This document shows positions 1 through 60,512 of a DNA stretch of 63,010 nt, one piece after another. The DNA comes from Candidatus Altimarinota bacterium (GTDB taxonomy: Bacteria; Patescibacteriota; Gracilibacteria; JBDHUY01). The notes under the pieces were generated by a model. The model did no database searches. It was not told the DNA's origin and saw nothing but the letters and a program-made list of their open reading frames with translations. The stretch covers positions 1 through 63,010 of the forward strand of contig JBDHUY010000013.1 in NCBI GenBank assembly GCA_039809385.1. Reading direction: 5' to 3'. A program made the translations under genes and the position numbers. Every line of letters begins with the position of its first letter. The stretch's first letter is position 1.

Positions 1-1441
1 TAGGAAATGTCTTTGTTGGCTCGCCCTCTGCGAGGGCTCGCCAGCCGATTTTAAGCGCAAATTGGAATTTTTTATCTTTCAAAATGAAGTTCGAGCCGAT
101 ATTTTTTAGGAATGCTCGGATTTCTTGATTGTCGCTTCGCGACAAAAGAATTTTGGCTTGGCTACTGGCTAAAATCATTTCTTTCATCGGTTCGAGCCAA
201 TTATTTCCTTTTTGTTCAAAATCTTTTATTTTCTGTTGAATATCCAGCTTCTCGTTGAGAAGTTTTTGTTTTTTCTGCTGATATTCCTCTGGCTCAATGC
301 CTTTTCCGCCAATAAACAGATCAAGTAAATTCTCGGTTTTGGCTTCGATTTCTGTTTTCTTGGTTTGGAGATTTTGAACAAAAACTTTCGTTTCTTCTTT
401 TGCCTGTTCCCGTTCTTTGTCTATCTCGGCAAGCATATTTTTTGCCCAGTCGTCAGGCAAAGAAACTTTTTGAATAATCGCTTTCATCTGTTCAACGAGA
501 TTTTCTTCCCGCAAATATTTTTCATTACAAGGTTGCTTTTTCTTGGTGCAACGATAATAGTGATGTCCTTTTTGCTTTTCGGCAGTTATGAGGCAGTCGC
601 AATTTCCGCATTTCATCAAACCAGAAAAAGCAAATTCGTGCCTTCGCTTGCGTTTCTTTTTTCCTCGATTGCTCATTACTTGTTGAACAGAATCAAAAAG
701 TTTCTTGGAAATAATTGGCTCGTGCGTTCCATCATAGATTTCACCGTTGAAAGAAAATACACCGTAGTAAATCGGATTTTGCAAAAGTCGCTGGACACAG
801 GAAACCGAAAGAACATTGCCTTTGTAGCTTCTTAGCCCCGCTTGATCCAAAATTTTAGCAAGGGCTTTTAGGGTATATTCGCCAGTTGCGTAAAGTTCAA
901 ATGCTTTTTTGATAAATGGTGCTTTTTCACTATCAATATCAATCGCCCTTGTTTTTGGATTATTGGAATATCCAAGCGGGGCAAAATTTGGCCAAATTCC
1001 TTTTCGCAGTTTTGCTCTATGCCCTCGTTTAATATTCTCACTTAAATTGTCGATATAATATTTACTTTGGCCAAAGGCAATGTTCATCATGAATTTCCCT
1101 TGTGGTGTGCTATCAAACCAGAATGTTGGAAACTTCAAATCTAAAATCTTTCCTGTGTCCAGCAGATAAATGATTTTGCCTCCGTCTATTGAATTTCTAG
1201 CCAGTCGATCCGGATGCCAAGCCAAAATTCCTTGGGCTTCACCCCTTTCAATCCGAGCAAGCATTTCGCCGAACACAGTTCGGCCAGGTTCTTTGGCAGT
1301 TTTTGCCTCGCAAAGCGAGGCGACGATTTCAAGTTTTTCTTTGGCGGCAAATTCTTTTAGCTCAGCAAGCTGAGCTTCAATACTTAAAACTTGTCTTTCT
1401 TCGCTGTCTGTTGATTTTCGAGTGTAGATAAAATATTTCAT
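1..1441 (-). CDS. Large serine recombinase (resolvase + recombinase + Zn-ribbon + coiled coil), 3' end beyond window
   Basis: Manual translation from ATG at 1441: MKYFIYTRKSTDSEERQVLSIEAQ (catalytic YxRxS), WHPDRLARN, SENIKRG, PLGY, GTHEPIIS, FSGLMKCGNC...YYRC...C. Frame stays open to base 1 (...WRALAEGEPTKTFP). Missing from the ORF track because no stop lies in the window. Confidence 0.95.
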   Translation of the reverse strand, partial: MKYFIYTRKSTDSEERQVLSIEAQLAELKEFAAKEKLEIVASLCEAKTAKEPGRTVFGEMLARIERGEAQGILAWHPDRLARNSIDGGKIIYLLDTGKILDLKFPTFWFDSTPQGKFMMNIAFGQSKYYIDNLSENIKRGHRAKLRKGIWPNFAPLGYSNNPKTRAIDIDSEKAPFIKKAFELYATGEYTLKALAKILDQAGLRSYKGNVLSVSCVQRLLQNPIYYGVFSFNGEIYDGTHEPIISKKLFDSVQQVMSNRGKKKRKRRHEFAFSGLMKCGNCDCLITAEKQKGHHYYRCTKKKQPCNEKYLREENLVEQMKAIIQKVSLPDDWAKNMLAEIDKEREQAKEETKVFVQNLQTKKTEIEAKTENLLDLFIGGKGIEPEEYQQKKQKLLNEKLDIQQKIKDFEQKGNNWLEPMKEMILASSQAKILLSRSDNQEIRAFLKNIGSNFILKDKKFQFALKIGWRALAEGEPTKTFP

Positions 1442-1506
1442 AGTTATCCCTTAAAAATTAAAAATGAAAATTCGGGAAGCCCGCTTTTGGCCAGCCCCTT
1501 CGGGGC

Positions 1507-1702
1507 AAAGATAAAAAATTCCAATTTGCGCTTAAAATCGGCTGGCGAGCCCTCGCAGAGGGCGAGCCAACAAAGACATTTCCTAACTGGCGGTGTGCGT
1601 TCGAAAAAATTCGAACTGATTTCGCCCAAAATTTGTAGGGCGGGCGGAATTCCCCCCAGCCCCCCCCTTCCGCCCGCCCGCAGAAGCGACCCTTTCGAAT
1701 TG
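1507..1702. repeat. Internal inverted copy of the joined element ends (putative attP copy)
   Basis: 1507-1585 is the exact reverse complement of 1-79. 1587-1702 is the reverse complement of 5309-5423 with about 2 mismatches and 1 indel. Confidence 0.95.
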
Positions 1703-1863
1703 AAAAACTGCCAAAGAACCTGAAAAAATATCGGCTCGAACTTCATTTTGGGCCAAAAGCGGGCTTCCCTCATTTTTAATTTGATTGATTTCATAAAATT
1801 TGTTAGTATATTTATGAAGGGTTAAATAAGCACCCATACTAATACTATCATACTTAGGAAACT

Positions 1864-2079
1864 ATGAAAAGTCAAAACGATAACGAAACAATTGGGGATA
1901 AGATAAAACAGCTTAGAAACAAGCAGGGATTAACGCAGGACGAATTAGCGAGAAAATCCGACCTTCCCTATACAACACTGACCAAGATTGAAACAAATGT
2001 TATTACTAAGCCGACCATTCAAACTGTAGTAAAAATAGCCAAAGGACTTGGCGTAAGTCTTGATGATTTAATGAAATAA
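1864..2079 (+). CDS. XRE-family HTH regulator (C/controller-like protein)
   Basis: IGDKIKQLRNKQGLTQDELARKSDLPYTTLTKIE...PTIQTVVKIAKGLGVSLDDL; directly upstream of the RM gene. Confidence 0.92.
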   Translation: MKSQNDNETIGDKIKQLRNKQGLTQDELARKSDLPYTTLTKIETNVITKPTIQTVVKIAKGLGVSLDDLMK

Positions 2080-2083
2080 AAAT

Positions 2084-5000
2084 ATGTCTAATATTGATAT
2101 ATTAATCAATAAAATAAATGGGAAGTATTTTAAATACTATATCTCTAAGCGAGATACTATTTCGAGTGAAGAAGATTTAAGAGTCGCATTTTCATCACTA
2201 ATTGACATAATCTCAAAAGAAAATAACGTAGCTATTCTCGAAGAACACCACGAGTATAGCGTGTTAAAAGGACGCATTGACTCACTTTATGGCGAAGTGA
2301 TAGTTGAATATAAAGAACCCCATTATCTAGATAGCTCTAATAGTTCTTCCAAAAATATGAAAGCTATTGAGCAAGTACAACGTCATATTGTCGGAATAGA
2401 GAAAAGACAGAAAATTAATATTAATAGATATTTAGGTGTAATTTTTGATGGATACAAGATAGTTTTTGTTAGAAGAAGAAATAATTTATGGGATGTAGAA
2501 AGCCCAGTGGATGTCAGTGAGAAATCATTTAAATTGCTTCTGCAAAGACTTTTTTCTATTGGCATACAGGGCAAGGCCTTAATTATCGACAATTTAATTA
2601 AAGATTTTAGTATCGTCTCAGATGATACTATCGATGATGTAAAGACATTGTTGGTCAATTTTGTAAAAAATGATAAGGGTAAGATCAATTTATTATTTGA
2701 ACAATGGAAGATTCTTTTCAGGGAAGTTTGCGGATATGATTTTGATACAAAAAAAATTGAAATTAAGGAACTCGCTAAAACTTTTCGAATAGAAAGTGAG
2801 GTTGATGACTTACCACGAATAATATTTGCTATCCAGACATATTATGCGCTCTTTATAAAATTACTTGGGGCTGAAACACTAACTTATTTCCGCCATAGGG
2901 ACAGGAGCTTCATCTCATCTTTAAATAAAGATAATCTTGAGCATAGAATAACATCTTTAGAAAGTGGAGAAATTTTTAGGCTGGAAGGTGTAAACAACTT
3001 CAACGAAGGAGACTTCTTTAGCTGGTATTTATTGTGTTGGAATAGTGAAATAAAAAACACAGTTCAAAAAATATCTACCAAACTTAAAGAATATGATTTT
3101 AGTTCACTAAATTTGGAACCTAAGGAGGCCAAAGACCTTATCAAGAATATTTATCATTACCTTTTGCCACAAAAACTAAGACACTCATTAGGAGAGTACT
3201 ATACTCCAGATTGGTTAGCAGAATTTTTAGTAAAAAAACTTGATATCGATTTTTCTAAAAAAATTAGAGTATTAGACCCCACCTGTGGTTCAGGCACCTT
3301 CTTATCAATCCTTATAGAAAAGATAAAAGAAAATAACGATATTTTAGAAAAAAACAAGTTAATTACCTGTTTAAACAGTATAGTTGGTATAGACTTGAAT
3401 CCCTTAGCAGTAATTTCTGCAAAAACAAATTATTTAATAGCCTTGTCTGAATACTTGAATGACATCGAGGAAGGCGGAATTGATATTCCCATTTATTTAA
3501 GCGATTCCTTATTAGCGCCACTTGAATTTAAAACAAAACATAAAACATACTACGCTTTACCAACTAAAGTTGGCATATTTAAAATCCCAGTTTCTTTAAT
3601 TCAAAATAAACAATTAGATATATTTTTAAATCTTGTAATCGCCTGTATTGATGTTGAGCTAAGTGTTGAGAAATTTAAGATTAAATATACTAGCCTTGAA
3701 TTGAATCTTTCTAATGCTGATAATGATTTGGTTTATGAGTTTTACAATACACTTTTAGAATTACAGAAAAAAGGACTTAACGGTATCTGGGGTAAAATCA
3801 TTAAGAATATATTTGCACCCGCTTTCTTTGATAATTTTGATTATATTATTGGTAATCCGCCTTGGATTAATTGGCAAAATCTACCAGAAGATTATAGAGA
3901 TTCTATAAAAAAATATTGGGAAGATTATAAAGTATTTTTGCATAAAGGATTAAAAGCAAGATTAGGTTCATCTCACGATGATATTAGCGTACTTTTAACA
4001 TACGTTGTAATGGATAAGTATCTAAAAAAAGATGGGCTTCTTGGTTTTGTACTTCCTCAGAATTTATTACAATCGTCGGGGGGTGGCGATGGATTTCGTA
4101 GGTTTCAAATTAAAGACGAAATACAAGTTAAGGCAGTTGTCGTAGATGATTTCGTTGCGGTGCAACCATTTGCAGACATTGGTGCTTCAAATAAGCCAGC
4201 GACTATAATTTTACAAAGAAATAATGTAACTACATATCCAGTCCCTTATCGTAGGTGGTACAAAAAAAGCAAAGGTACAATACCTTCTGATCAGCCATTA
4301 AGTGCTGTTCTTCCTTTATTACAGAATGAGGAACTTGTAGCAGAGCCAATAAAAAACAAGACCCCAGGCTCCTCTTGGCTTATAGCGGACAATAAAAAGA
4401 TAAAAGTATTAAAAGCCTTAGTTGGTCATTCAGATTATCGTGCTAGAAAAGGCGTAGATTTTAGTCTTAATGGCTTGTATTGGGGAAAAATTTCTAGGTC
4501 AAAGATTAAAGGGAATATAGTATTTGAAAATGCATCAGATATCGGAAGAAAAAAACTAAAGCCCTATCAAATACCTCTTGAAAAGGATGTTATTTTTCCA
4601 ATACTTCGCGGGAAAGATATAGAGAGGTGGTTAGCTGAGCCCAGCTATATGGCAGTGATTCCTTATGATAATAGTGGTAAATGCATCCGGACAGAAGATT
4701 TAAAAAATGAATATCCAAATACTTACAAATTTTTTTACAAAACTGACGAGGAAATTACGCGATGGCTAGATACAAGAGGAATTTATCAAAAACACCTTAA
4801 ATTAGCCAATATACCACTACATGGTTTATATGATATTGGAGAATATACCTTTAGCAAATACAAGGTTGTTTGGAAAGCATTAGCTAGTGGAATGATAGCA
4901 AGTGTTATAAACTCTATCGATTATGGTTTATTGGGTAATAAGTTGGTTATTCCTGATCATAATGTCTTAATGGTTCCTTTAGATACGGCAGAAGAAGCCC

Positions 5001-5239
5001 ATTATTTGTGCGGCATATTGAATAGTGAAATTGTCAATGAATTTGTCATTGCTTATATTTCTTGGTTTTATTCAAGCCATATTTTAGAACATATTAATAT
5101 TCCGAGTTTTAATGTAAATAATCGAAATCATCGAAGAATCAGCGAGCTATCACAAAAAGCACATTTGCATAAAAAATTAACAGAGTTTGAGCAAGAAGAA
5201 CTTAATAATATAACACTGGCAATTTTAGAAAAAGATTAA
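2084..5239 (+). CDS. Type IIG/IIC fused restriction endonuclease-N6-adenine methyltransferase
   Basis: N-terminal RIDSLYGEVIVEYK (PD-(D/E)xK-like), GEYYTPDWLA, motif I VLDPTCGSGTFL, motif IV IIGNPPW, C-terminal TRD-like region (YKVVWK...YLCGILNS). AT-rich. Confidence 0.9.
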   Translation: MSNIDILINKINGKYFKYYISKRDTISSEEDLRVAFSSLIDIISKENNVAILEEHHEYSVLKGRIDSLYGEVIVEYKEPHYLDSSNSSSKNMKAIEQVQRHIVGIEKRQKININRYLGVIFDGYKIVFVRRRNNLWDVESPVDVSEKSFKLLLQRLFSIGIQGKALIIDNLIKDFSIVSDDTIDDVKTLLVNFVKNDKGKINLLFEQWKILFREVCGYDFDTKKIEIKELAKTFRIESEVDDLPRIIFAIQTYYALFIKLLGAETLTYFRHRDRSFISSLNKDNLEHRITSLESGEIFRLEGVNNFNEGDFFSWYLLCWNSEIKNTVQKISTKLKEYDFSSLNLEPKEAKDLIKNIYHYLLPQKLRHSLGEYYTPDWLAEFLVKKLDIDFSKKIRVLDPTCGSGTFLSILIEKIKENNDILEKNKLITCLNSIVGIDLNPLAVISAKTNYLIALSEYLNDIEEGGIDIPIYLSDSLLAPLEFKTKHKTYYALPTKVGIFKIPVSLIQNKQLDIFLNLVIACIDVELSVEKFKIKYTSLELNLSNADNDLVYEFYNTLLELQKKGLNGIWGKIIKNIFAPAFFDNFDYIIGNPPWINWQNLPEDYRDSIKKYWEDYKVFLHKGLKARLGSSHDDISVLLTYVVMDKYLKKDGLLGFVLPQNLLQSSGGGDGFRRFQIKDEIQVKAVVVDDFVAVQPFADIGASNKPATIILQRNNVTTYPVPYRRWYKKSKGTIPSDQPLSAVLPLLQNEELVAEPIKNKTPGSSWLIADNKKIKVLKALVGHSDYRARKGVDFSLNGLYWGKISRSKIKGNIVFENASDIGRKKLKPYQIPLEKDVIFPILRGKDIERWLAEPSYMAVIPYDNSGKCIRTEDLKNEYPNTYKFFYKTDEEITRWLDTRGIYQKHLKLANIPLHGLYDIGEYTFSKYKVVWKALASGMIASVINSIDYGLLGNKLVIPDHNVLMVPLDTAEEAHYLCGILNSEIVNEFVIAYISWFYSSHILEHINIPSFNVNNRNHRRISELSQKAHLHKKLTEFEQEELNNITLAILEKD

Positions 5240-5308
5240 GAATTTGCCAGCCAAACTGGGTGAAGCCCAGAGTTCCGCTTTTAGCGGAACGAAAAACTTG
5301 AAATCGTC

Positions 5309-5423
5309 CAATCCGAAAGGGTCGCTTCTGCGGGCGGGCGGAAGGGGGGTCTGGGGGGAATTCCGCCCGCCCTACAAATTTTGGGCGAAATCAGTTCGAA
5401 TTTTTTCGAACGCACACCGCCAG
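5309..5423. repeat. Right-end repeat of the element (inverted relative to 1587-1702)
   Basis: About 115-nt GC-rich reverse-complement match, with internal hairpins GGGCGG...CCGCCC and GTTCGAA-TTTT-TTCGAAC. Confidence 0.95.
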
Positions 5424-5518
5424 AATCCAATCGAGTTATTTGAGCTATACAAACTTCAACAGGCATAGGAGCTGTACTTTTTATCCATATATTCAAAATT
5501 ACGTTCATAAAGATTATC

Positions 5519-5956
5519 ATGAAAATCTATATTACCGCCCCTTTTCAAGGAAACAAAAATCGAGACCAGATCGAAAATATGTGTGCAATCGTCAACAAAT
5601 CCGGTTTTGAAGATTTTTGTTTTGTACGCGATGTCGAAAATTACCAGAAGGTCTTTCATAATGCTCATGAACTAATGCAACGAGCCAAAGAAGAGATCGA
5701 AAAATGTGACGCATTGCTAATCGACTATGACGGTCCGGCCAGCGGTCGTATGATAGAACTTGGCATCGCGTATGCCTTGCAGAAAAAAATCATGTTGATA
5801 ACCCACAAAGGAACTACTGTAAAAGAAACCGTAACTGGAGTTACGAATGCAATCATTGAATACGAAACTCTCGAAGATATTGTTGAACCGATGACAAAAA
5901 TTCTGTCAGATTGGACAAGAAATGAGAATATTGCTCAAGACCTTAGCAGAACTTAG
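5519..5956 (+). CDS. Nucleoside 2-deoxyribosyltransferase-family protein
   Basis: MKIYITAPF...IEKCDALLI...SGRMIELGIAYA family motifs. Confidence 0.8.
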   Translation: MKIYITAPFQGNKNRDQIENMCAIVNKSGFEDFCFVRDVENYQKVFHNAHELMQRAKEEIEKCDALLIDYDGPASGRMIELGIAYALQKKIMLITHKGTTVKETVTGVTNAIIEYETLEDIVEPMTKILSDWTRNENIAQDLSRT

Positions 5957-6044
5957 TCATAGAGATTCTTCATAATGAGTTTGCTTTAACAACAAGCGAG
6001 TATTTTTCTGTCTTACCACTTTCACGCTAAAAAATAGATAATAT

Positions 6045-6263
6045 ATGGAAGTGATACGTCAAATAATAGGATTTGTTGGTATTGTTATCGTCATCCCTAT
6101 TTGGGGACTCACAGGAGTATTGATTATTATGGGCATCGTTGGCTTGGTTAAAAAGGATTTTGCATATTTTAAAAGGGTATTACGAGTTTGGTGCTATTGT
6201 TGGCTAGCCTTTTTAGCCCTGTTGCTCGTCTATTTCATAATTACATTTATGTCTTCGCTATAA
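6045..6263 (+). CDS. Small membrane protein (2 TM)
   Basis: Two hydrophobic segments, followed by a terminator. Confidence 0.6.
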   Translation: MEVIRQIIGFVGIVIVIPIWGLTGVLIIMGIVGLVKKDFAYFKRVLRVWCYCWLAFLALLLVYFIITFMSSL

Positions 6264-6278
6264 TGACCGCATCAGCAA

Positions 6279-6318
6279 GAAAAAGCTCTGCGCGATATTT
6301 GCTCGCAGAGCTTTTTTC
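6279..6318. terminator. Bidirectional intrinsic terminator
   Basis: AAAAAGCTCTGCG...CGCAGAGCTTTTTT between convergent genes. Confidence 0.8.
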
Positions 6319-6346
6319 AAATATACAAAACAGAATGTTCTTTGAA

Positions 6347-8284
6347 TTATAAATTCCCAAACGCTTCCAGAAACTTATACAGAATCTTACCGATCTCGGC
6401 CCGATTGACAAACGAATTCGGCTTGAACGTTCCGTCGGGATTCCCGCTGATCATCCCCAAAGCTTTGGCTTTACAAATATCGCGAACATATTTGTTACTG
6501 CTTGAAACATCCGAAAAACAACTTCCGGGAGCATCGGACGTATCGATACCAAAGACATCCATTGCAAATCCGATCACCTGTCCGCGCGTAGCCGCATTGT
6601 TCAGACCGAAATTATCGTCGGTCAGAATGCGATAGTTTTTAAAGAGCACTACCTGATAAAACTTCTTGGCCCAGTGTGACATAGTATTCTTTCCGACATC
6701 CTGACTCTCGACCGACGGATTGGCAAAGAGCGTAGAGCCTTCGCCTTTATCGGACGCATTCAATAACATTTTGAACAGCTCGGCGATCGTAACGTTATTG
6801 GCGGGTCTAAAAAGACCAAGAAAATTTCCGGCAGCATCTTTATAACCGCCGACAATCCCCAAATCCCTGAGTTTACGCACAAACGGAAAGAACCAGGTAC
6901 TGTCGTCGACATCGGTAAAGTTCAGCAGATTCTTGCCGAATTTGAGATTGACGGCTTCCTGGGTCGCTTTGTTGACCGAGGCGGTAAGCTCGGAAAGAGC
7001 TTTTTGCAATCGCTCGCTGGTAAGCGTCGGATCCACAAAGAGCGTCTTCATGTCCGACAATTTATTTTCCAAATCGCCATACTGGTCTTTATACCACTGA
7101 TAGGCTCGGATACTACGCAGGGTTTTGATTCCCTCGGTAACGTCGATCCCCAGCGCGTCTCTCAGCTGGAGTAACGTATCTTCCAGATCGAATATCCTTT
7201 CGATCAGACGATTATGCCGATCGACCAGACCAGCCAGAACCCGATAGGGATTATTATAGAGACTTTCTATGTGATAACCATTACCATTACTGTCCAGTTT
7301 TTCCGTCAGATCGATGGATCGAAGTTCGTCGAGCGTAAATGTTTTTGTGACAGAATCGTTCACCTGCAAAGTGACTTGGGTGACTTCTTCGGGAGCATAT
7401 AGCAGAAGTCCGTCGTAGTGATTAAGGGTTTGGGTCGAAAAAGAGACATCGCTGGAAGCCGGACAACCGTTTACGATTGAGCCGCTCCCCGACATATTAA
7501 ACGTACAATCGGTCGAGGTAGCGGGCGTCACTTTGTCGTTTGCATCGAAAAAAAGTGTCCGGACCAACCGTCCGCCGCTACCACTAAAGGTGACCTTCCC
7601 TTGCCATTCTTTTTTGGTAGTTGTAAATATCGTTTCGAGTTGGGGAATCTTGCCCCACGTCACTGCGAAAAGTACCGGCCATTGATCATCAGTACCAATA
7701 TTTTGAATCTGGACTTTATGTCCCAGCGTATCGGTCGTAAATGTTGTGTTAATATTGCGCAGCTCTTTGACGGTATAAATCTTCGTCACTTCGCCGGTAC
7801 GGATCTTTACTTCCTGATTGAGAGACTTCGGGTACAATTTAACCTTAACCGCATCAAAGGTTTGGGAGATTGTCGAACTCCACTCCAAGCGGGCAAGGTT
7901 TGCAGGATCGCGGGGAAGAACAGTATCTTCGGGTTCGAAGAAAACGGTTTTTTTCAAGAAAGCCCGTCCCTGTCCCTGCATGTCGACATACCCGTCAAAG
8001 TTAATCGTGGAGCCGGTAGCGGTACGTTCAAAATAGCCCCATTTGACCATGAGATTGATCGGTCTCAAATCTTCGTTGAAGCCGACACCCTCGCAAATAC
8101 CGGGGTAGGCAATCGGAGTCCCGGTAGCCATGCAGTCGTTGCTGTACGTTACTCCGTTGACGCCGCACACCGGCAGATATTCTTTGGTACAAATGAGCTC
8201 CGCGTTACTTTGAGAAAGGGGCATGGTGAATATTATGCCGCCGAAAAGCATAAAAACCAGAAGCGAGAGAAACGATCGTTTCAT
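6347..8284 (-). CDS. Secreted SLH-domain protein with N-terminal Kazal-type domain
   Basis: Signal peptide; CTKEYLPVCGVNGVTYSNDC...C (Kazal-like); C-terminal FTDVDDSTWF, GLFRPANNVTIAE, GNPDGTFKPNSFVNRAE (SLH). Confidence 0.85.
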   Translation of the reverse strand: MKRSFLSLLVFMLFGGIIFTMPLSQSNAELICTKEYLPVCGVNGVTYSNDCMATGTPIAYPGICEGVGFNEDLRPINLMVKWGYFERTATGSTINFDGYVDMQGQGRAFLKKTVFFEPEDTVLPRDPANLARLEWSSTISQTFDAVKVKLYPKSLNQEVKIRTGEVTKIYTVKELRNINTTFTTDTLGHKVQIQNIGTDDQWPVLFAVTWGKIPQLETIFTTTKKEWQGKVTFSGSGGRLVRTLFFDANDKVTPATSTDCTFNMSGSGSIVNGCPASSDVSFSTQTLNHYDGLLLYAPEEVTQVTLQVNDSVTKTFTLDELRSIDLTEKLDSNGNGYHIESLYNNPYRVLAGLVDRHNRLIERIFDLEDTLLQLRDALGIDVTEGIKTLRSIRAYQWYKDQYGDLENKLSDMKTLFVDPTLTSERLQKALSELTASVNKATQEAVNLKFGKNLLNFTDVDDSTWFFPFVRKLRDLGIVGGYKDAAGNFLGLFRPANNVTIAELFKMLLNASDKGEGSTLFANPSVESQDVGKNTMSHWAKKFYQVVLFKNYRILTDDNFGLNNAATRGQVIGFAMDVFGIDTSDAPGSCFSDVSSSNKYVRDICKAKALGMISGNPDGTFKPNSFVNRAEIGKILYKFLEAFGNL

Positions 8285-11621: not shown

Positions 11622-12611
11622 CTATTCTTGGACAATGAAACTTCCTTTCATTCCCATGGCTCGATGACTACCCACCGAGCAGTAAAATTCGAAGGTGCCG
11701 ACTTTATCCGCGACAAACTGGACGGTTTCTTCCTGGCCGGTACTGATCTGCTTGGTAGCGACGTTCAATTCGTCGATGACCAAATCATGGAATCCTCCCA
11801 CGTTTTTGAAGGTTATTTTTACGGTATCGCCTTTTTTAACAGTAATGGTGGAAGGTGAAAAACTGTGATTCTGGCCCGATACGGTAAATTCTTTGACCGC
11901 TGCGGGAGCAGTCGCATTGGTGTTGGTATTCATCACCGGTGCATTAGCATTCCCATTGGAAACCGTGGCTGCATTCATATTTTTATTCGTCGAAGAATTG
12001 ACGGGAATACCGGCAAGTTCTTCGTAGGTTTTGGAAGGTTTGCTAGTAATATCCTGGTGAAGTCGGTAGGTCATTTCGGCCATCTCGCCGCGGTTGATCA
12101 GCTGGTCTAATTTGTTGATGGAGGGGGCAATTGCGTTTACTTTGGCCAGGTTCTGGACATAGACTTTATACCAAGGGTCGGTGGCTGGGGTGGCAGAAAA
12201 TCCTTTGAGATTGGAGAGTACCTTGGCGGCCTCGACAAAACTGATATTCTGGGCCGGTTTGAAGGTTCCATCCGGGTAACCGTTTATAATGTTATTTTCC
12301 AGAGCATAGCAGACGTAGGTGAGAAACCAGTCGCCGCTCTTTGCATCCGGGAATTTGGTACAGGTTTTTCCATTGGCTTTGCCTGGGGCAAAGGCCTCGA
12401 GGGTGATTTTGAGAAATTCGGCGCGGTTGAGTAATTTTTCAGGCTGGAAGGTACCATCACTATAGCCTTTGATGATCCCTTTATTTTGTAAAAAGTTGAT
12501 GGCTTCGTAGTACGGATGGGTCGAGGGCACGTCGGGAAATGTCGCGCTCGCCACCAGCGGCAACACCAAAAGTCCTGCCAGAAAAACGGCTAACCGTTTG
12601 GAGAGTTTCAT
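11622..12611 (-). CDS. SLH-domain protein with C-terminal cupredoxin (type 1 copper) domain
   Basis: SLH repeats (GYSDGTFQPEKLLNRAE); C-terminal FHDLVID...FEFYCSVGSHRAMGMKG provides H/C/H/M copper ligands. Confidence 0.88.
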   Translation of the reverse strand: MKLSKRLAVFLAGLLVLPLVASATFPDVPSTHPYYEAINFLQNKGIIKGYSDGTFQPEKLLNRAEFLKITLEAFAPGKANGKTCTKFPDAKSGDWFLTYVCYALENNIINGYPDGTFKPAQNISFVEAAKVLSNLKGFSATPATDPWYKVYVQNLAKVNAIAPSINKLDQLINRGEMAEMTYRLHQDITSKPSKTYEELAGIPVNSSTNKNMNAATVSNGNANAPVMNTNTNATAPAAVKEFTVSGQNHSFSPSTITVKKGDTVKITFKNVGGFHDLVIDELNVATKQISTGQEETVQFVADKVGTFEFYCSVGSHRAMGMKGSFIVQE

Positions 12612-51753: not shown

Positions 51754-51836
51754 CTACGGGATTCTTTGTTCTCGCTAACGCGGGACTCAGAATGACCAGT
51801 ACCGGTCATTCTGAGAGAGCGCGAAGAATCCCGTAG
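51754..51836. repeat. REP-like palindrome (GATTCTT..CTCAGAATGAC / GTCATTCTGAG..GAAGAATC)
   Basis: Near-identical copy at 54093-54169; half copies at 41772-41797, 59771-59796 and 60342-60365. Confidence 0.8.
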
Positions 51837-51862
51837 CCTGCCGTTAACGCATCACAACCTGG

Positions 51863-52330
51863 TTACTTCTCCAGATCGATCTTCACCTTCTTGGCCTGGC
51901 TTTCCGGGGTTTTGGGTAACGTCACGACCAGCGTGCCGTTCTTCATATACTTGGCGCTGATCTTATCGCTCTCTACGGCAGTGGGGAGGGAAAACGAGCG
52001 GTAAAATTTCGTATGACGTTCACGCAGATGATACTGCTTCTTGTCTTTCATATCGTCTTCCGTTTTTTCGGATTGTTCGGCACTCAGCGTAAAGATGCCA
52101 TCTTGAACCTCGACCTGAATATTCTCGGGATCCATACCCGGCACGTCGGCTGTAACGACAATCTCGTGTTCGGTCTCTTCCATATCGACTCTCGGCATGG
52201 CGGCACGGGAAGAGACGCTCATCGAACGCGGCCAGTCAAAAAACCAGTTCATCAAGTCCTGCGTATCATCGGTCACGGGCGTCATGACCGGATGATTATG
52301 ACCCCTGGGAGCCCATCGAATGAGTTTCAT
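51863..52330 (-). CDS. Small heat shock protein Hsp20
   Basis: PRVDMEE, ADVPG, FYRSFSLP, NGTLVVTLPK. Confidence 0.95.
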   Translation of the reverse strand: MKLIRWAPRGHNHPVMTPVTDDTQDLMNWFFDWPRSMSVSSRAAMPRVDMEETEHEIVVTADVPGMDPENIQVEVQDGIFTLSAEQSEKTEDDMKDKKQYHLRERHTKFYRSFSLPTAVESDKISAKYMKNGTLVVTLPKTPESQAKKVKIDLEK

Positions 52331-52352
52331 AAAAATTGAATAAAGATATAAA

Positions 52353-52379
52353 TTAGCACTTGCTATATTAGAGTGCTAG
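52353..52379. promoter_or_regulatory. CIRCE element (HrcA operator) overlapping the hsp20 promoter
   Basis: TTAGCACTT-N9-GAGTGCTAG versus consensus TTAGCACTC-N9-GAGTGCTAA; minus-strand TTGACT-17-TAATAT overlaps it. Confidence 0.9.
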
Positions 52380-52541
52380 CACTGAAAAGTCAAGAGGAAG
52401 ATTTTATTGCAAATGTATTAGGTATTACGTATAAAGTATCTAGTATGGTACACTTTTTGTAAGCTCCAATGGGGCCTCTTCGGGGCTGTAAACCTGCCCT
52501 CTGCACCTCTCCCTTCTCCAGACTCCTAACTCCCCCCTCCC

Positions 52542-53060
52542 ATGCCCGCTACCATTACTAAAGACATGACCTTGACCGAAATTATCGACCAGGTGCCGGC
52601 AGCCCCGGATATCATGCTGGACTACGGACTGCATTGTTTCGGCTGCGCGTTTAACGGCTACGAGACGCTGGAACAAGGTATTCTGGGACACGGGATGAGC
52701 GAGGGAGACCTGGAAACCATCTTGCGGGAACTGAACGAAGCGTCCGAAGATTTGCCAACATTGACGGTAAAAGGCATTACCCTGACCGAACGGGCTTTGC
52801 GAAAAATAGAAGATATTCAGGAGGAGGAAAGCAAAACGGGGTGGCTGTTACAAGTGGACTTTCTGAAAAACGAGCAGGGAGACCGCGACTTTTTTCTCGA
52901 TTTTATTGAAGCTCCCAAAAAGACATATACACCGATCCGGTTTGAAAGTATTACGTTGGTATTTCCTACTAAAGCAGTAAAGTCGTTGGAAGGGCTTCAG
53001 ATAGACTACACGACGATAGGCGGCGAGGAAGGTTTTCGATTTGTCACCAAAAAGAGTTGA
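52542..53060 (+). CDS. DUF1858-domain + HesB/IscA-like protein
   Basis: ITKDMTL..YGLHCFGC...ETLEQG..HG; ITLTERA...LEGLQIDY..EGFRF. Confidence 0.85.
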   Translation: MPATITKDMTLTEIIDQVPAAPDIMLDYGLHCFGCAFNGYETLEQGILGHGMSEGDLETILRELNEASEDLPTLTVKGITLTERALRKIEDIQEEESKTGWLLQVDFLKNEQGDRDFFLDFIEAPKKTYTPIRFESITLVFPTKAVKSLEGLQIDYTTIGGEEGFRFVTKKS

Positions 53061-53084
53061 CATTATTGCCAGACTAATTACAAT
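53057..53084 (+). promoter_or_regulatory. Sigma70-type promoter
   Basis: TTGACA-N16-TACAAT. Confidence 0.7.
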
Positions 53085-53090
53085 AAAAAC

Positions 53091-53262
53091 GGTTTTTTTA
53101 GCAAAATTTATGCGATCTACCTATACCCTTCACATCTCGGCTGTCATTTGCCAGAATATCTCCTTTCCCTGGAAAGGTGTGAAGCGGTGTGTTGATCAAG
53201 GCTAACAAAGCCATAAAGAGACAATCAACAAAACCGCTTCGAGGAAAGAAGCGGTTTTTTGT
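53091..53262 (+). ncRNA. Candidate rod-shaped small RNA (6S-like?)
   Basis: Promoter, an extended bulged hairpin 53091-53212 with G-U pairs, and a terminator at 53230-53260. Confidence 0.5.
53230..53262 (+). terminator. Intrinsic terminator
   Basis: AAAACCGCTTC...GAAGCGGTTTTTT. Confidence 0.85.
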
Positions 53263-53372
53263 TCTTGAGATAAAGAATGCGTCCTAATAAGCACTCTTAC
53301 AAAAAAAGACGTTCCGAAATTGTATAAAAAAACACGAAAAAATTATTTATCATAATAATAAACCTACAAAAA

Positions 53373-53933
53373 ATGGAAGTTATTGAATTAAAAGTTACGA
53401 ACAATAGCCAAGGCATATTAGAGATTGAGTGCGACCAAGCGACATTACCAATAAATACTGGTACAGAATTGGATGATAAGCTCAAGGTATATATAACCAA
53501 CAGAACAAGAAGTAGAGTTACCACAACTCTTAATTTTGACGGCATCGTGATCATGCAGGGAAAGGAGATTGTGGGTGGACGCGGCATCAGTGCTCCCCAA
53601 GAAATTCCACATGCACATAGGGTACAAAATCATAAACAAGGACAAGTTCTGAATTTTGACAGAACTCCAATAGAAAAAAAACCTACCCATACGCGGAATA
53701 ATGCATCCTCAGAACCCTTAATATCCGTAAAAGAGGGTATCATGACGATACGATTTTTAATTACTAGATTGGAAATAGAAGAACAGGATGAAAGAAATGA
53801 TGAGTCCATGGAAGTGGAATACTCTTGGACAAAAGGCCAAGCACCAGTATTAACAGCAATGAATCACGCTTACCAAAAAAATCCTACCGCTAAGAAAGAA
53901 GTAAGAACATTTAGAAAAACTGCAACCGGATAG
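53373..53933 (+). CDS. Hypothetical protein
   Basis: 186-aa ORF followed by the hairpin TTGTGAGTGAGGAA...TTCCTCACTCACAA. Confidence 0.6.
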   Translation: MEVIELKVTNNSQGILEIECDQATLPINTGTELDDKLKVYITNRTRSRVTTTLNFDGIVIMQGKEIVGGRGISAPQEIPHAHRVQNHKQGQVLNFDRTPIEKKPTHTRNNASSEPLISVKEGIMTIRFLITRLEIEEQDERNDESMEVEYSWTKGQAPVLTAMNHAYQKNPTAKKEVRTFRKTATG

Positions 53934-54092
53934 GTATATTTGTTATAGAATTGTGAGTGAGGAAAGCAACCATAAATACGTTCCTCACTCACAACCCTAT
54001 TTCCTCATGATCACAGAAACAGCGTGGTCTTTTTTGGCGTGAGAAGCCTGAACTAGAGAGTGTTCCCTGGGAGGGAGTGGTAGACTGGGAGT

Positions 54093-54169
54093 ACGGGATT
54101 CTTCGCTCCCGCTAACGCGGGGCTCAGAATGACAGTCCCTGGTCATTCTGAGCGTAGCGAAGAATCCCG
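54093..54169. repeat. REP-like palindrome, copy of 51754-51836
   Basis: GGGATTCTTCGCTCCCGCTAACGCGGGGCTCAGAATGAC...GTCATTCTGAGCGTAGCGAAGAATCCC. Confidence 0.8.
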
Positions 54170-59490: not shown

Positions 59491-59846
59491 GGGAAGAAGA
59501 AAGTATTATGTATTTGGTATAAAGTATCTGGTATAAGCCCTTGAAAGCATTGAGTGACGAGCAGTCACAATGAAAACTGAAAAATGCAAAACTTGTTCTG
59601 AGGAGGAAGGACGAATGAATGTAACGTGGCAGACAATTAATTCCGCAGTTTCCCATGAATCATTGCCTTCCCCTAGCTCCTAACTTCTATACTCTATATT
59701 CTATCTTCTAAGTTCTTGTTTTGCTGTAAACCCCAACGGGCCCCTTGCGGGGCTGTAAGCTCGTAGTACTGTCACTCTGAGCGAAGCGAAGAGTCCCTAC
59801 TCCCCCAGCTTACCGTACCTTTTCTTTTCTCACAAATCGGTTTTAT

Positions 59847-60314: not shown

Positions 60315-60512
60315 AAGAAAATCAGAAGTTTGAAGAGAAAGGCTCTTCGCTTCGCTCAGAGTAACTGCATGTGCAGCTGGCAGTCTGGAAGAGCAAAGCA
60401 GGAGCTGGAAGTATATAGCTAAGAGCTAACAACTCACAGTTGACAACCAATTCAGGACAAGCTTTTTTACTTTGCATTTACTGACAGCTGACCGCCGGTC
60501 GCTCTCCGCTCC

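What the first reader, a model, noticed from the sequence alone, without database searches (positions are those of the whole stretch)
1..5423. Serine-recombinase element whose single strand folds into an origami-like network of four-way junctions
Seen in sequence, reverse-complement pairings: A 1-79/1507-1585; B 80-107/1723-1750; C ~1455-1492/1751-1782 (bulged); D 1285-1304/1703-1722; E 1587-1702/5309-5423; F 1322-1339/5291-5308; H 109-122/1250-1267 (4-nt bulge); I 1340-1356/5238-5255 (1-nt bulge). These helices abut exactly, with local hairpins filling the remaining arms. J1 = E+D+hairpin 1305-1321+F, no unpaired base. J2 = A+hairpin 1494-1506+C+B, one unpaired A (1493). J3 = B+H+hairpin 1268-1284+D, one unpaired A (108). 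J4 = F+I+hairpins 5256-5270 and 5272-5290, one unpaired A (5271). The hairpin loops are mostly 3 nt (TTC/GAA, AAA, ACA, TTT); GAA triloops are known to be very stable in DNA. A-E-D-B together close a ring of about 240 bp that contains the att junction. Inference: the element has a programmed single-stranded (DNA, or possibly RNA) form, for example during natural-competence uptake, that folds to present a double-stranded recombination site. I know of no described LSR element with this architecture.
Basis: partly seen in the sequence, partly recalled or inferred. Interest (0 to 1): 0.95.

Follow-up and report, generated by a model that had tools for sequence, protein, structure and literature searches.

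The report
Self-pairing recombinase element at tRNA-Ser
A small mobile element that inserts next to a serine tRNA gene is built so that one strand can pair with itself across its whole recombinase gene and both ends, a design kept by selection in dozens of distantly related bacteria and not found in the literature searched.

Summary
The reported pairings are all present at the stated coordinates and are far beyond chance. The first 2 kb holds 14 long-range perfect inverted repeats of at least 14 nt, against 133 in the whole 1.87 Mb genome. Codon-preserving shuffles of the recombinase gene give a mean of 0.08 such repeats, against 6 observed.

The network is not an assembly artefact. The same helices recur in 43 of 43 full-length homologous loci from many phyla, including one isolate genome. 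They carry compensatory changes, among them coupled amino-acid replacements in paired coding arms.

A 330-nt hub upstream of the recombinase gene is a gapless string of reverse-complement copies of the joined element ends, of two coding stretches and of itself.

Helices are almost purely Watson-Crick, with no G:T excess. Triloops dominate the local hairpins. Perfect arms reach 87-143 nt. I read this as a single-stranded DNA fold in which the hub splints the two ends (about 0.4). An RNA-level fold of the recombinase mRNA is the main rival (about 0.3).

No description was found in seven literature searches.

The parts
1..5423 (.). Integrative element, about 5.43 kb. The left end is at or just before position 1, next to the tRNA-Ser(GGA) gene on contig C8. 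The right end is at 5423.
   Evidence: C8 overlaps window 1-121. The tRNA-Ser ends 2 nt before position 1. A 7-nt direct repeat, CCGCCAG, lies at both ends. Homology with other elements stops at these points.
2..1441 (-). Large serine recombinase gene. The reading frame has no stop inside the element and runs on across the att core into the antisense of the tRNA.
   Evidence: Pfam Resolvase, Recombinase and Zn_ribbon_recom. In 41 of 42 loci the stop lies at or beyond nt 1443; one runs off its contig.
1..79 (.). Arm a of helix A (87 nt with the 8 nt on C8). It encodes the recombinase C-terminal tail and holds the left att half.
   Evidence: 100% complementary to 1507-1585. Found in 43 of 43 loci. 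74 of the 79 modelled pairs show double-sided changes (four segments, 14+20+4+36).
80..107 (.). Arm b of helix B
   Evidence: 100% complementary to 1723-1750. 91.9% Watson-Crick over 37 loci; 11 of 28 pairs show double-sided changes.
109..1267 (.). Nested fold of the body of the coding region: H 109-122/1250-1267; 148-162/1216-1230; 193-208/707-722; 209-224/369-384; 460-473/693-706; 790-804/1149-1163; 811-824/1072-1085.
   Evidence: The same helices recur in coding-region coordinates in the other loci. Coupled amino-acid replacements keep the pairs. Folding z-scores are -5.84 (DNA, + strand) and -4.40 (RNA, - strand).
1268..1356 (.). Docking stretch in the 5' part of the coding region: hairpin 1268-1284, arm d 1285-1304, hairpin 1305-1321, arm f 1322-1339, arm i 1340-1356.
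   Evidence: The two hairpins have 3-nt loops in 33 of 35 and 34 of 37 loci where a hairpin was found.
1455..1782 (.). Hub, a gapless string of complementary segments: c 1455-1492, hairpin 1494-1506, a' 1507-1585 (to 1593), e 1587-1702, d' 1703-1722, b' 1723-1750, c' 1751-1782. The stretch a'+e is the reverse complement of the joined element ends, that is, an inverted internal copy of attP.
   Evidence: The same order recurs in the other loci.
1847..1875 (-). Best promoter-like site (TTGACT, 17 nt spacer, TATGAT) pointing towards the recombinase gene. It would place the whole hub in the 5' UTR.
   Evidence: This is a consensus match only.
1864..2079 (+). XRE-type HTH protein of 71 aa, divergent from the recombinase gene
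   Evidence: Pfam HTH_3. A divergent reading frame of 64-82 aa sits at this place in 21 of the 27 other loci listed; its family was scanned only for the window's copy.
2084..5239 (+). Cargo: a fused restriction-modification enzyme of 1051 aa (type IIG/IIL-like)
   Evidence: Pfam N6_Mtase, Eco57I, MmeI_Mtase.
5238..5423 (.). Far-end module: i' 5238-5255, hairpins 5256-5270 and 5272-5290, f' 5291-5308, e' 5309-5423. Arm e' ends in a tRNA-3'-end-like stretch and the core CCGCCAG (5417-5423).
   Evidence: The E arm shows 54-143 matching nt (90-143 in 27 of 28 loci) with 0-4 mismatches in 27 of 28, while the arm is only 64% identical (median) between loci.

Best explanation
What it is (shown). The stretch is a 5.4-kb site-specific integrative element carrying a large serine recombinase, a small XRE-type regulator and a restriction-modification cargo. 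It sits at the 3' end of a tRNA-Ser gene and is flanked by a 7-nt core repeat.

Its non-cargo part is built to pair with itself as a single strand.
- A 330-nt hub between the recombinase promoter region and the start codon consists, without spacers, of reverse-complement copies of several stretches.
- These are the two element ends joined together (a'+e, about 200 nt, an inverted copy of attP), two stretches of the recombinase coding region (b, d) and the hub's own other arm (c/c').
- The far end also pairs with coding positions 84-120.
- The body of the coding region folds into nested 13-16 bp helices.
- Selection maintains this network across a widespread family.

How it most likely works (inferred). 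The fold acts when the element is single-stranded DNA, for instance after uptake of a chromosomal fragment by natural transformation, or in another ssDNA stage.
1. The short helices compact the 1.8-kb recombinase module.
2. They bring both termini onto the hub, which acts as a splint.
3. Either copy of the core repeat can pair with the hub centre, so the flanking DNA is left as two flaps at a nick.
4. Host flap nucleases or exonucleases and ligase could then release a precise single-stranded circle that already carries a duplex attP.
5. Second-strand synthesis, recombinase expression and integration into a tRNA-Ser gene would follow.
For: - **Observation real and non-random:**
- **Family-wide conservation:** helix A is found as a perfect repeat in 43 of 43 full-length loci. 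The other helices recur at the same coding-region coordinates. The 43 loci were picked from the 80 fetched.
- **Covariation on an alignment of 37 loci, 322 pairs:**
  - 83.5% of cells are Watson-Crick, against 25-40% with the 3' partner slid by 1-3 columns and 70.6% (maximum 71.2) in 200 column shuffles.
  - 177 of 322 pairs show double-sided changes, against a shuffle mean of 122.6 (maximum 137).
  - 1058 cells are double-changed, against 316 (maximum 360).
- **Coupled amino-acid replacements keep pairs:**
  - V to G with E to A.
  - K to Q with S to A, 15 of 15 pairs Watson-Crick.
  - S to K with QM to LC, 13 of 13 pairs Watson-Crick.
- **Hub equals the reverse complement of the joined ends.** Both ends and the hub centre share the core.
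- **E arms** have 0-4 mismatches in 27 of 28 loci, though they are only 64% identical (median) between loci.
- **DNA rather than RNA, wobble pairs:** in the retained helices there are 7213 Watson-Crick cells, 89 G:T on the recombinase-sense strand, 144 G:T on the other strand and 171 other mismatches. In the E, F and I arms the counts are 9, 16 and 26. Wobble pairs are therefore not tolerated.
- **DNA rather than RNA, loops and arm length:** 3-nt loops dominate the local hairpins, in 19 of 28, 34 of 37 and 33 of 35 cases. Perfect duplex arms reach 87-143 nt.
- **Far-end arms:** F and I sit on the other side of a variable 0.6-5.5 kb cargo. In the integrated state, only a strand that spans the whole element holds both partners.
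- **No replication or transfer gene was seen:** 23 proteins were scanned in all, the window's three element genes plus 20 cargo genes from other loci. The recombinase is nevertheless 95-97% identical in loci labelled as different phyla.
- **Negative control:** a 35%-identical recombinase gene in the same genome has 3 long-range repeats in 8 kb, against 20 here.
Against: - No data show the element as single-stranded DNA. Read laying returned contigs only and gave no verdict.
- The helices form three mutually crossing classes, so full-length helices of different classes cannot coexist without threading long strands. This points to sequential or alternative states rather than one origami-like object.
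- The hub lies downstream of the best promoter-like site and upstream of the start codon, so it is probably in the recombinase mRNA. The ribosome-binding site and the first 83 coding nt are free of helices in the loci examined. That is what an mRNA fold would need.
- The strand hints disagree. G:T mismatches are slightly more frequent on the strand antisense to the recombinase (144 against 89). The purine triloops (GAA, AAA) of the non-coding hairpin lie on the sense strand.
- The flap trimming and ligation steps are pure inference.
- The cell counts are not phylogenetically independent.
Confidence: 0.4

Rival explanations
1. RNA-level fold in cis. The hub is the 5' UTR of the recombinase mRNA. 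It pairs with the 3' end of its own coding region (A, B) and with coding positions 138-157 (D), and the coding region folds on itself.

In the excised circular form, transcription runs across attP into the far end and so adds helices E, F and I. The fold would then set recombinase expression or mRNA stability according to the integrated or excised state. This resembles lambda int/sib retroregulation through RNase III (recalled).
For: - The best promoter-like site lies upstream of the hub and points towards the gene.
- The translation-initiation region, from -12 to +83, is helix-free.
- A roughly 2-kb transcript of the circular form would hold every helix without the cargo (my reading of the gene order).
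- The reading frame crosses the att core, so the mRNA 3' part differs between the two states.
- The minus strand folds well as RNA, with z -4.40.
- Contigs of related elements occur in two RNA libraries, which is not proof of transcription.
Against: - G:U pairs are not enriched: 89 on the sense strand against 144 A:C and 171 other mismatches, and 9 against 16 and 26 in the E, F and I arms.
- Triloops dominate rather than tetraloops.
- Perfect 87-143 bp duplexes would be RNase III substrates in both states, since helix A is present in both.
- Helices along a whole translated coding region are unusual for an mRNA regulator.
- In the integrated state, arms E2, F2 and I2 are not in the mRNA, yet they are kept perfectly.
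Confidence: 0.3
2. The hub transcript acts in trans as a guide. An RNA carrying the sequence of the joined ends (e' followed by a) pairs with the complementary DNA strand at both attL and attR. It brings the two ends together for excision, in effect an RNA directionality factor. This is loosely like the bridge RNA of IS110 elements.
For: - The hub holds about 200 nt identical to the joined ends.
- The elements carry no recognisable directionality-factor gene. Only the 71-aa window HTH protein and its unscanned 64-82 aa counterparts at that place in 21 of the 27 other loci listed might serve.
- The hub is probably transcribed.
Against: - It does not explain helices inside the coding region, nor C, F and I.
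- Serine integrases are not known to use RNA (recalled).
- 87 plus 116 nt of perfect complementarity is far more than a guide needs.
Confidence: 0.08
3. Double-stranded DNA explanation. The internal inverted attP is a second protein-binding or recombination site. It could serve autoregulation of the recombinase, or inversion isomers as with FLP sites in the 2-micron plasmid repeats (recalled). The long repeats A and E would be kept identical by gene conversion, and the short helices would be side effects.
For: - A and E are long enough for homologous gene conversion.
- Their near-perfect identity despite fast divergence between loci looks like concerted evolution.
- Recombinase-binding sites between promoter and gene are known from Tn3-type resolvases (recalled).
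Against: - Helices of 13-28 nt are too short for conversion, yet they show compensatory changes, including coupled amino-acid replacements.
- The arms abut exactly.
- Only one isomer is seen: the tRNA lies next to the recombinase 3' end in 38 of 43 loci and never next to its 5' end.
Confidence: 0.08
4. Assembly or amplification chimera, or chance.
For: - The finding starts at a contig end.
- Several repeats are 100% identical.
- Many homologous genes sit at contig ends.
Against: - The same architecture appears in 43 independent loci, including an isolate genome and contigs of 230-690 kb.
- The reading frame is intact and conserved.
- Compensatory changes are present.
- Shuffles give almost none.
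Confidence: 0.01

Closest known systems
Folded single-stranded att sites: CTX-phi attP(+) used by XerCD, and integron attC sites (recalled, not read here)
   Same: A single DNA strand pairs with itself so that a recombination site becomes double-stranded. Inverted copies of the site lie on one strand.
   Different: Those are local hairpins of under about 150 nt, with imperfect pairing and extrahelical bases. They are used by tyrosine recombinases that exchange one strand. Here the arms lie 1.4 and 3.7 kb apart and are perfect over 87-143 nt. The network covers a whole gene, and the enzyme is a serine recombinase that cuts both strands.
IS200/IS605-family single-strand transposition, such as IS608 (recalled)
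   Same: The element ends are recognised and brought together through base pairing within one DNA strand. The element leaves as a single-stranded circle with a precise junction.
   Different: Those use an HUH (Y1) transposase, small subterminal hairpins and 4-nt guide pairings. No HUH protein is present here: none of the 23 proteins scanned, the window's three element genes plus 20 cargo genes from other loci, matched such a family. The proposed circle-forming step here would rely on host enzymes.
Tycheposons and other small tRNA-targeting integrative elements with variable cargo (abstract start only, 10.1101/2020.12.28.424599, listing)
   Same: Small integrative elements that use a site-specific recombinase, insert at tRNA genes and carry variable cargo without a transfer apparatus of their own.
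   Different: I saw no pairing network or internal inverted attP described for them, but I read only the listing. This recombinase family is under 33% identical to any recombinase in the phage and plasmid collections.
Lambda int retroregulation by sib (recalled)
   Same: The integrase gene abuts attP, so the sequence downstream of the gene, and hence the RNA structure, differs between the integrated and free states.
   Different: sib is one local RNase III hairpin. Here a 5' UTR hub pairs with the coding region and with both ends, and the pairs avoid G:U.
IS110 bridge RNA (abstract start in the listing, PMC11208158)
   Same: A non-coding stretch next to the recombinase gene carries sequences complementary to both recombining partners.
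   Different: In IS110 the recombinase is of the DEDD type and the guide loops are short. Here complementarity is about 200 nt and also extends into the coding region. No RNA role is shown.
Parvovirus and AAV terminal repeats (recalled)
   Same: Perfect multi-arm DNA junctions with 3-nt loops in a single-stranded genome. The arms are kept complementary.
   Different: Those are terminal, local T- or Y-shaped hairpins that prime replication. Here the junctions join segments kilobases apart in a bacterial integrative element.

Membership tests
Large serine recombinase (serine integrase) integrative element | Protein with an N-terminal resolvase catalytic domain, a recombinase domain and a zinc ribbon | tested here: met
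   Pfam PF00239 (3.2e-19), PF07508 (3.5e-17), PF13408 (5.9e-08).
Large serine recombinase (serine integrase) integrative element | Site-specific insertion with a short shared core at both junctions | tested here: met
   A 7-nt core lies at both ends. Of 43 loci, 33 abut a tRNA-Ser 3' end, 5 abut another tRNA and 5 are none or unclear. The boundaries are shared across loci. No empty site was found in 40 relatives.
Large serine recombinase (serine integrase) integrative element | Recombination between short double-stranded attP and attB | not testable with these tools
   Needs an in vitro or in vivo assay.
Folded-ssDNA recombination sites (CTX-phi attP, integron attC) | Two nearby inverted half-sites forming one local imperfect hairpin | tested here: not met
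   The arms are 1427 and 3606-3677 nt apart and perfect or 97% complementary.
Folded-ssDNA recombination sites (CTX-phi attP, integron attC) | A tyrosine recombinase performing single-strand exchange | tested here: not met
   The only recombinase in the element is of the serine type.
IS200/IS605 single-strand transposons | An HUH/Y1 transposase (with or without TnpB) | tested here: not met
   No such domain appeared among the 23 proteins scanned: the window's three element genes and 20 cargo proteins from other loci.
Serine-invertase switch (Hin/Gin-type inverton) | A small serine recombinase with one pair of short inverted sites flanking an invertible segment | tested here: not met
   The protein is a 480+ aa recombinase with a zinc ribbon. 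More than 15 different repeat pairs are present, many inside the gene.
Any described structured RNA family (Rfam 15) | A match to a covariance model | tested here: not met
   Only two sub-threshold snoRNA-like chance hits in 1-8000 at E up to 1. No tRNA or tmRNA in 1-8000.

The most novel reading that the evidence does not exclude
This is a family of broad-host-range integrative elements that carries its own DNA-folding programme for horizontal transfer.

Any chromosomal fragment holding the element, once taken up as single-stranded DNA, folds so that an internal splint aligns its two ends. Ordinary host flap nucleases and ligase then cut it out and circularise it, with no element-encoded protein needed. 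The circle is converted to duplex DNA and integrates at tRNA-Ser.

This would be a new route of gene transfer, a transformation-adapted mobile element, and a natural example of kilobase-scale programmed single-stranded DNA folding.
Probability: 0.3. Interest if true: 0.95.

Novelty: categorically new. Interest (0 to 1): 0.9.

Why it matters
Known self-pairing recombination substrates are local hairpins. Here base pairing is selected across an entire protein-coding gene, both element ends and a dedicated hub. The selection is strong enough to force coupled amino-acid replacements in an enzyme.

The family is abundant in metagenomes. More than 100 protein clusters are at least 62% identical to this recombinase. 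It occurs in Patescibacteria and many other phyla at up to 97% protein identity. It carries defence and other cargo but no transfer genes.

If the fold works in DNA, it points to an undescribed way for minimal elements to move between very distant hosts. It would also give a natural design principle for kilobase single-stranded DNA folding. If it works in RNA, it is an unusually large state-sensing regulator for a serine integrase, an enzyme class widely used in genome engineering.

There is also a practical point. The repeats break assemblies at these elements, and the internal inverted attP mimics the circular junction in short reads.

Tried and rejected

I computed the same measures in Python instead.
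- The first MAFFT run timed out and was repeated with faster settings.
- Supplementary files were not consulted.

**Searches that found nothing useful**
- Read laying: all four runs were Logan contigs. They gave no verdict on a circular junction, inversion isomers, transcript ends or strand. Stretches without cover, one 'opposite strands' joint (47 to 1353, one contig) and several skips in one run were not interpretable. Presence of related contigs in two RNA libraries does not show transcription.
- Empty-site search with the right flank in 40 relatives found none.
- Rfam and ARAGORN on 1-8000 found nothing.
- The phage and plasmid collections hold only relatives below 33% identity.

**Ideas rejected**
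- An amplification or assembly chimera (see rivals).
- The recombinase acting on the duplex attP of a folded single-stranded circle. Double-strand exchange would leave two hairpin-capped chromosome ends (reasoning only).
- A single-strand promoter of the plasmid Frpo type driving the recombinase. The only -10-like hexamer in helix C lies too close to the ribosome-binding site (my reading).
- An RNA circle made from a tRNA-processed whole-element transcript. No reverse transcriptase is present to return it to DNA.

**Limits of the sampling and literature check**
- Strand assignment is unresolved. The mismatch asymmetry and the loop composition point in opposite directions.
- Of the 80 loci, only 43 were scanned for repeats (those matching from residue 1 or 2). 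37 were aligned and 28 had enough upstream sequence for the E, F and I arms. The rest were truncated by contig ends.
- Seven literature searches and one in-paper term search found no description. I read only listings and abstract starts.

Full report
**1. The observation**

- A 1-79/1507-1585, B 80-107/1723-1750, D 1285-1304/1703-1722 and F 1322-1339/5291-5308 are perfect.
- E 1587-1702/5309-5423 is 97% complementary. Its differences lie in the tip of an internal hairpin.
- C is two perfect blocks separated by a 6-nt bulge.
- I read H, I and the five local hairpins directly from the sequence.

Two of these abut exactly, at 208/209 and 706/707.

**2. Chance**

- The first 2 kb of the contig holds 14 long-range perfect inverted repeats of at least 14 nt. 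The whole 1.87-Mb genome holds 133, and no other 2-kb bin has more than 3.
- In 300 shuffles that keep the protein and the codon usage, the coding region has on average 0.08 such repeats (maximum 2), against 6 observed. No shuffle has abutting arms, against 2 observed.
- A stretch of the coding region folds far better than dinucleotide shuffles, both as DNA (z -5.84) and as RNA (z -4.40). In each case 0 of 20 shuffles fold as well.
- A second, 35%-identical large serine recombinase gene on contig C3 of the same genome has 3 long-range repeats of at least 12 nt in 8 kb, against 20 here.

**3. Context**

The window is a whole contig, and its first 121 nt overlap the end of contig C8. Just upstream lies a tRNA-Ser(GGA) gene whose 3' end is 2 nt before position 1. 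Helix A extends 8 nt into it and is therefore 87 nt long.

The genes are as follows:
- a large serine recombinase, 2-1441 on the minus strand (Resolvase, Recombinase, Zn_ribbon_recom);
- an XRE-type HTH protein, 1864-2079;
- a 1051-aa fused restriction-modification enzyme, 2084-5239.

The same 7 nt (CCGCCAG) end the tRNA and end arm e' at 5417-5423. The element therefore runs from the tRNA 3' end to 5423. The last 30 nt of e' resemble a tRNA 3' part, with a hairpin holding TTCGAA followed by ACCGCCA.

The recombinase reading frame has no stop inside the element. In 41 of 42 loci it ends at or beyond the core, in the antisense of the tRNA. In one locus it runs off the contig.

**4. Anatomy of the hub**

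The stretch 1455-1782 is a gapless string: c, hairpin, a', e, d', b', c'. The segment a'+e is the reverse complement of e' joined to a, that is, of the junction the element would have as a circle (attP). The core in the middle of the hub can pair with either copy of the core repeat.
- Arms b' and d' pair with coding positions 1335-1362 and 138-157.
- The far-end arms f' and i' pair with coding positions 103-120 and 86-102.

As chords, the helices fall into three classes: {B, D, H and the coding-region helices}, {A, E} and {C, F, I}. Each class is nested within itself, and every pair of classes crosses. Globally the structure is a multiple pseudoknot, so full-length helices of different classes could form together only by threading or in a set order.

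**5. Related loci**

The protein has thousands of relatives. The best 120 clusters are 62-95% identical to it, apart from one 42% hit (P0100), and many sit on contigs of about 1.6-2 kb.

A scan of one genome per species returned 80 loci. Most are Patescibacteria. Others are labelled Kiritimatiellia, Gammaproteobacteria, Nitrospira, Thermodesulfovibrio, Brocadia, Omnitrophota and Actinomycetota. One is the isolate Schleiferia thermophila DSM 21410. Some lie inside contigs of 230-690 kb. Labels of bins on short contigs may be wrong.

In all 43 loci with a full-length gene that I scanned, helix A is present as a perfect repeat, and the other helices recur at the same coding coordinates. In the most distant members (57-63% protein identity) some coding-region helices are replaced by others nearby.

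The element boundaries are shared. Of 43 loci, 33 abut the 3' end of a tRNA-Ser gene (five different anticodons), 5 abut another tRNA (Gln, Trp twice, Phe, Arg), and 5 have none or are unclear. Locus L006 is a tandem of two elements. There the recombinase end of one element is joined to the tRNA-like far end of the next.

**6. Selection on pairing**

On a MAFFT alignment of 37 loci I applied the structure taken from the window plus three helices seen in other loci, 322 pairs in all.
- 83.5% of 11,394 cells are Watson-Crick. This compares with 25-40% when the 3' partner is slid by 1-3 columns, and with 70.6% (maximum 71.2) in 200 within-column shuffles.
- 177 of 322 pairs show changes on both sides, against a shuffle mean of 122.6 (maximum 137).
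- 1058 cells are double-changed, against 316 (maximum 360).
- These counts are of cells, not independent events.

The E arms show 54-143 matching nt (90-143 in 27 of 28 loci) and carry 0-4 mismatches in 27 of 28. Between loci they are only 64% identical at the median, with a range of 33-99%.

Pairing is kept even at the cost of the protein.
- In L030 and L032, Val to Gly in one arm goes with Glu to Ala in its partner 160 nt away.
- Lys to Gln goes with Ser to Ala, with 15 of 15 pairs Watson-Crick.
- In L057, Ser to Lys goes with Gln-Met to Leu-Cys, with 13 of 13 pairs Watson-Crick.

**7. Cargo**

In 21 of the 27 other loci listed, a divergent 64-82 aa reading frame sits where the window has its XRE-type gene. 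Its family was scanned only for the window's copy. It is followed by 0.6-5.5 kb of variable cargo.

The 20 cargo proteins scanned gave the following:
- type II, IIG and type I-like restriction-modification parts;
- SMC/ABC-type ATPases;
- an HD-domain protein;
- a multicopper oxidase;
- an inserted rve-type transposase;
- 8 proteins with no family.

None is a replication, relaxase or HUH protein.

**8. DNA or RNA**

Points leaning towards DNA:
- In helices that are at least 70% paired, mismatches are 89 G:T on the recombinase-sense strand, 144 G:T on the other strand and 171 others, against 7213 Watson-Crick cells.
- In the E, F and I arms the same counts are 9, 16 and 26. Wobble pairs are thus not favoured, unlike what I recall for structured RNAs.
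- The three local hairpins have 3-nt loops in 19 of 28, 34 of 37 and 33 of 35 cases where a hairpin was found.
- In the non-coding hairpin the loops are mostly GAA or AAA closed by C:G on the sense strand. I recall this motif as a very stable DNA mini-hairpin.
- Perfect duplex arms reach 87-143 nt.
- In the integrated state, arms F and I have their partners on the other side of the cargo.

Points leaning towards RNA:
- The best promoter-like site (minus strand, 1875-1847) lies upstream of the hub.
- The region from -12 to +83 is helix-free.
- A transcript of the circular form reading through attP would hold every helix without the cargo.

Read laying gave contigs only and no verdict.

**9. Mechanism**

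I commit to a single-stranded DNA fold in which the hub splints the two ends at the core repeat. This leaves the flanks as flaps that host nucleases and ligase can remove, giving a precise single-stranded circle with a duplex attP. The coding-region helices compact the recombinase module and bring the ends to the hub.

The anatomy and the selection are shown. The ssDNA stage, the flap processing and the link to transformation are inferred. I put this at about 0.4.

The rivals are:
- a cis fold of the recombinase mRNA, about 0.3;
- a hub RNA guiding the ends, about 0.08;
- a double-stranded-DNA role with gene conversion, about 0.08;
- artefact or chance, about 0.01.

**10. What is known**

The recombinase is under 33% identical to any in the phage and plasmid collections. 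Rfam has no matching family.

Seven full-text searches and one in-paper term search found no description of a recombinase element with such a network. I saw only listings and abstract starts, and supplements were closed.

The nearest concepts are folded single-stranded att sites (CTX-phi, integron attC), IS200/IS605 single-strand transposition, lambda sib retroregulation, IS110 bridge RNA, and tRNA-targeting cargo elements such as tycheposons. All but the last two are recalled rather than read. Each shares one idea, and none shares the architecture.

**11. Verdict**

The element as such is a new family member of a known kind. The conserved element-wide pairing network with an internal inverted copy of its own joined ends has no described counterpart that I could find.

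Noticed in passing
window 1-121 and contig C8 end (locus L083 1039-1128): The contig break falls exactly in helix A, and five contig pairs in this assembly overlap by 121 nt. Many homologous recombinase genes in public assemblies also sit within a few hundred nt of a contig end, so these repeats seem to break assemblies.
   Followed up: partly
window 2-1441 (-) and beyond position 1: The recombinase reading frame has no stop codon inside the element. It ends in the antisense of the tRNA, so the C-terminal tail differs between the integrated and circular forms. The stop lies at or beyond nt 1443 in 41 of 42 loci; one runs off its contig.
   Followed up: partly
window 5332-5372 and 1638-1679: Each E arm holds an internal GC-rich hairpin with a loop of two G6 (or C6/C8) runs, and a TTCGAA...TTCGAA palindrome. 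The G-rich strand could form a G-quadruplex. This was not analysed.
   Followed up: no
L006:7444-13440: This is a tandem array. The recombinase end of one element is joined to the tRNA-like far end of a second element, whose recombinase (65% identical) starts at 12603. This suggests the far end can serve as a substitute target site.
   Followed up: partly
G000 contig C3 177234-178664: A second large serine recombinase gene, 34.6% identical, lies near a contig end and has no inverted-repeat network. I used it as a negative control.
   Followed up: yes
window 51754-54169: A small cluster of 13-15 nt perfect inverted repeats (for example 51821-51835/54092-54106 and 51786-51799/54139-54152). It is the only other bin in the window with 3 such repeats.
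   Followed up: no
window 59774-59793 / 60343-60362: A 20-nt perfect inverted repeat 550 nt apart, unexplained.
   Followed up: no
window 6347-8284 (-): A 645-aa protein with Kazal-type protease-inhibitor and S-layer-homology domains, just outside the element.
   Followed up: no
L021 (Schleiferia thermophila DSM 21410), 626-7443: A cultured isolate carries a family member with a type II restriction-modification cargo (TdeIII-like endonuclease and a methylase) and an inserted rve-type transposase gene. It is a possible experimental system.
   Followed up: partly
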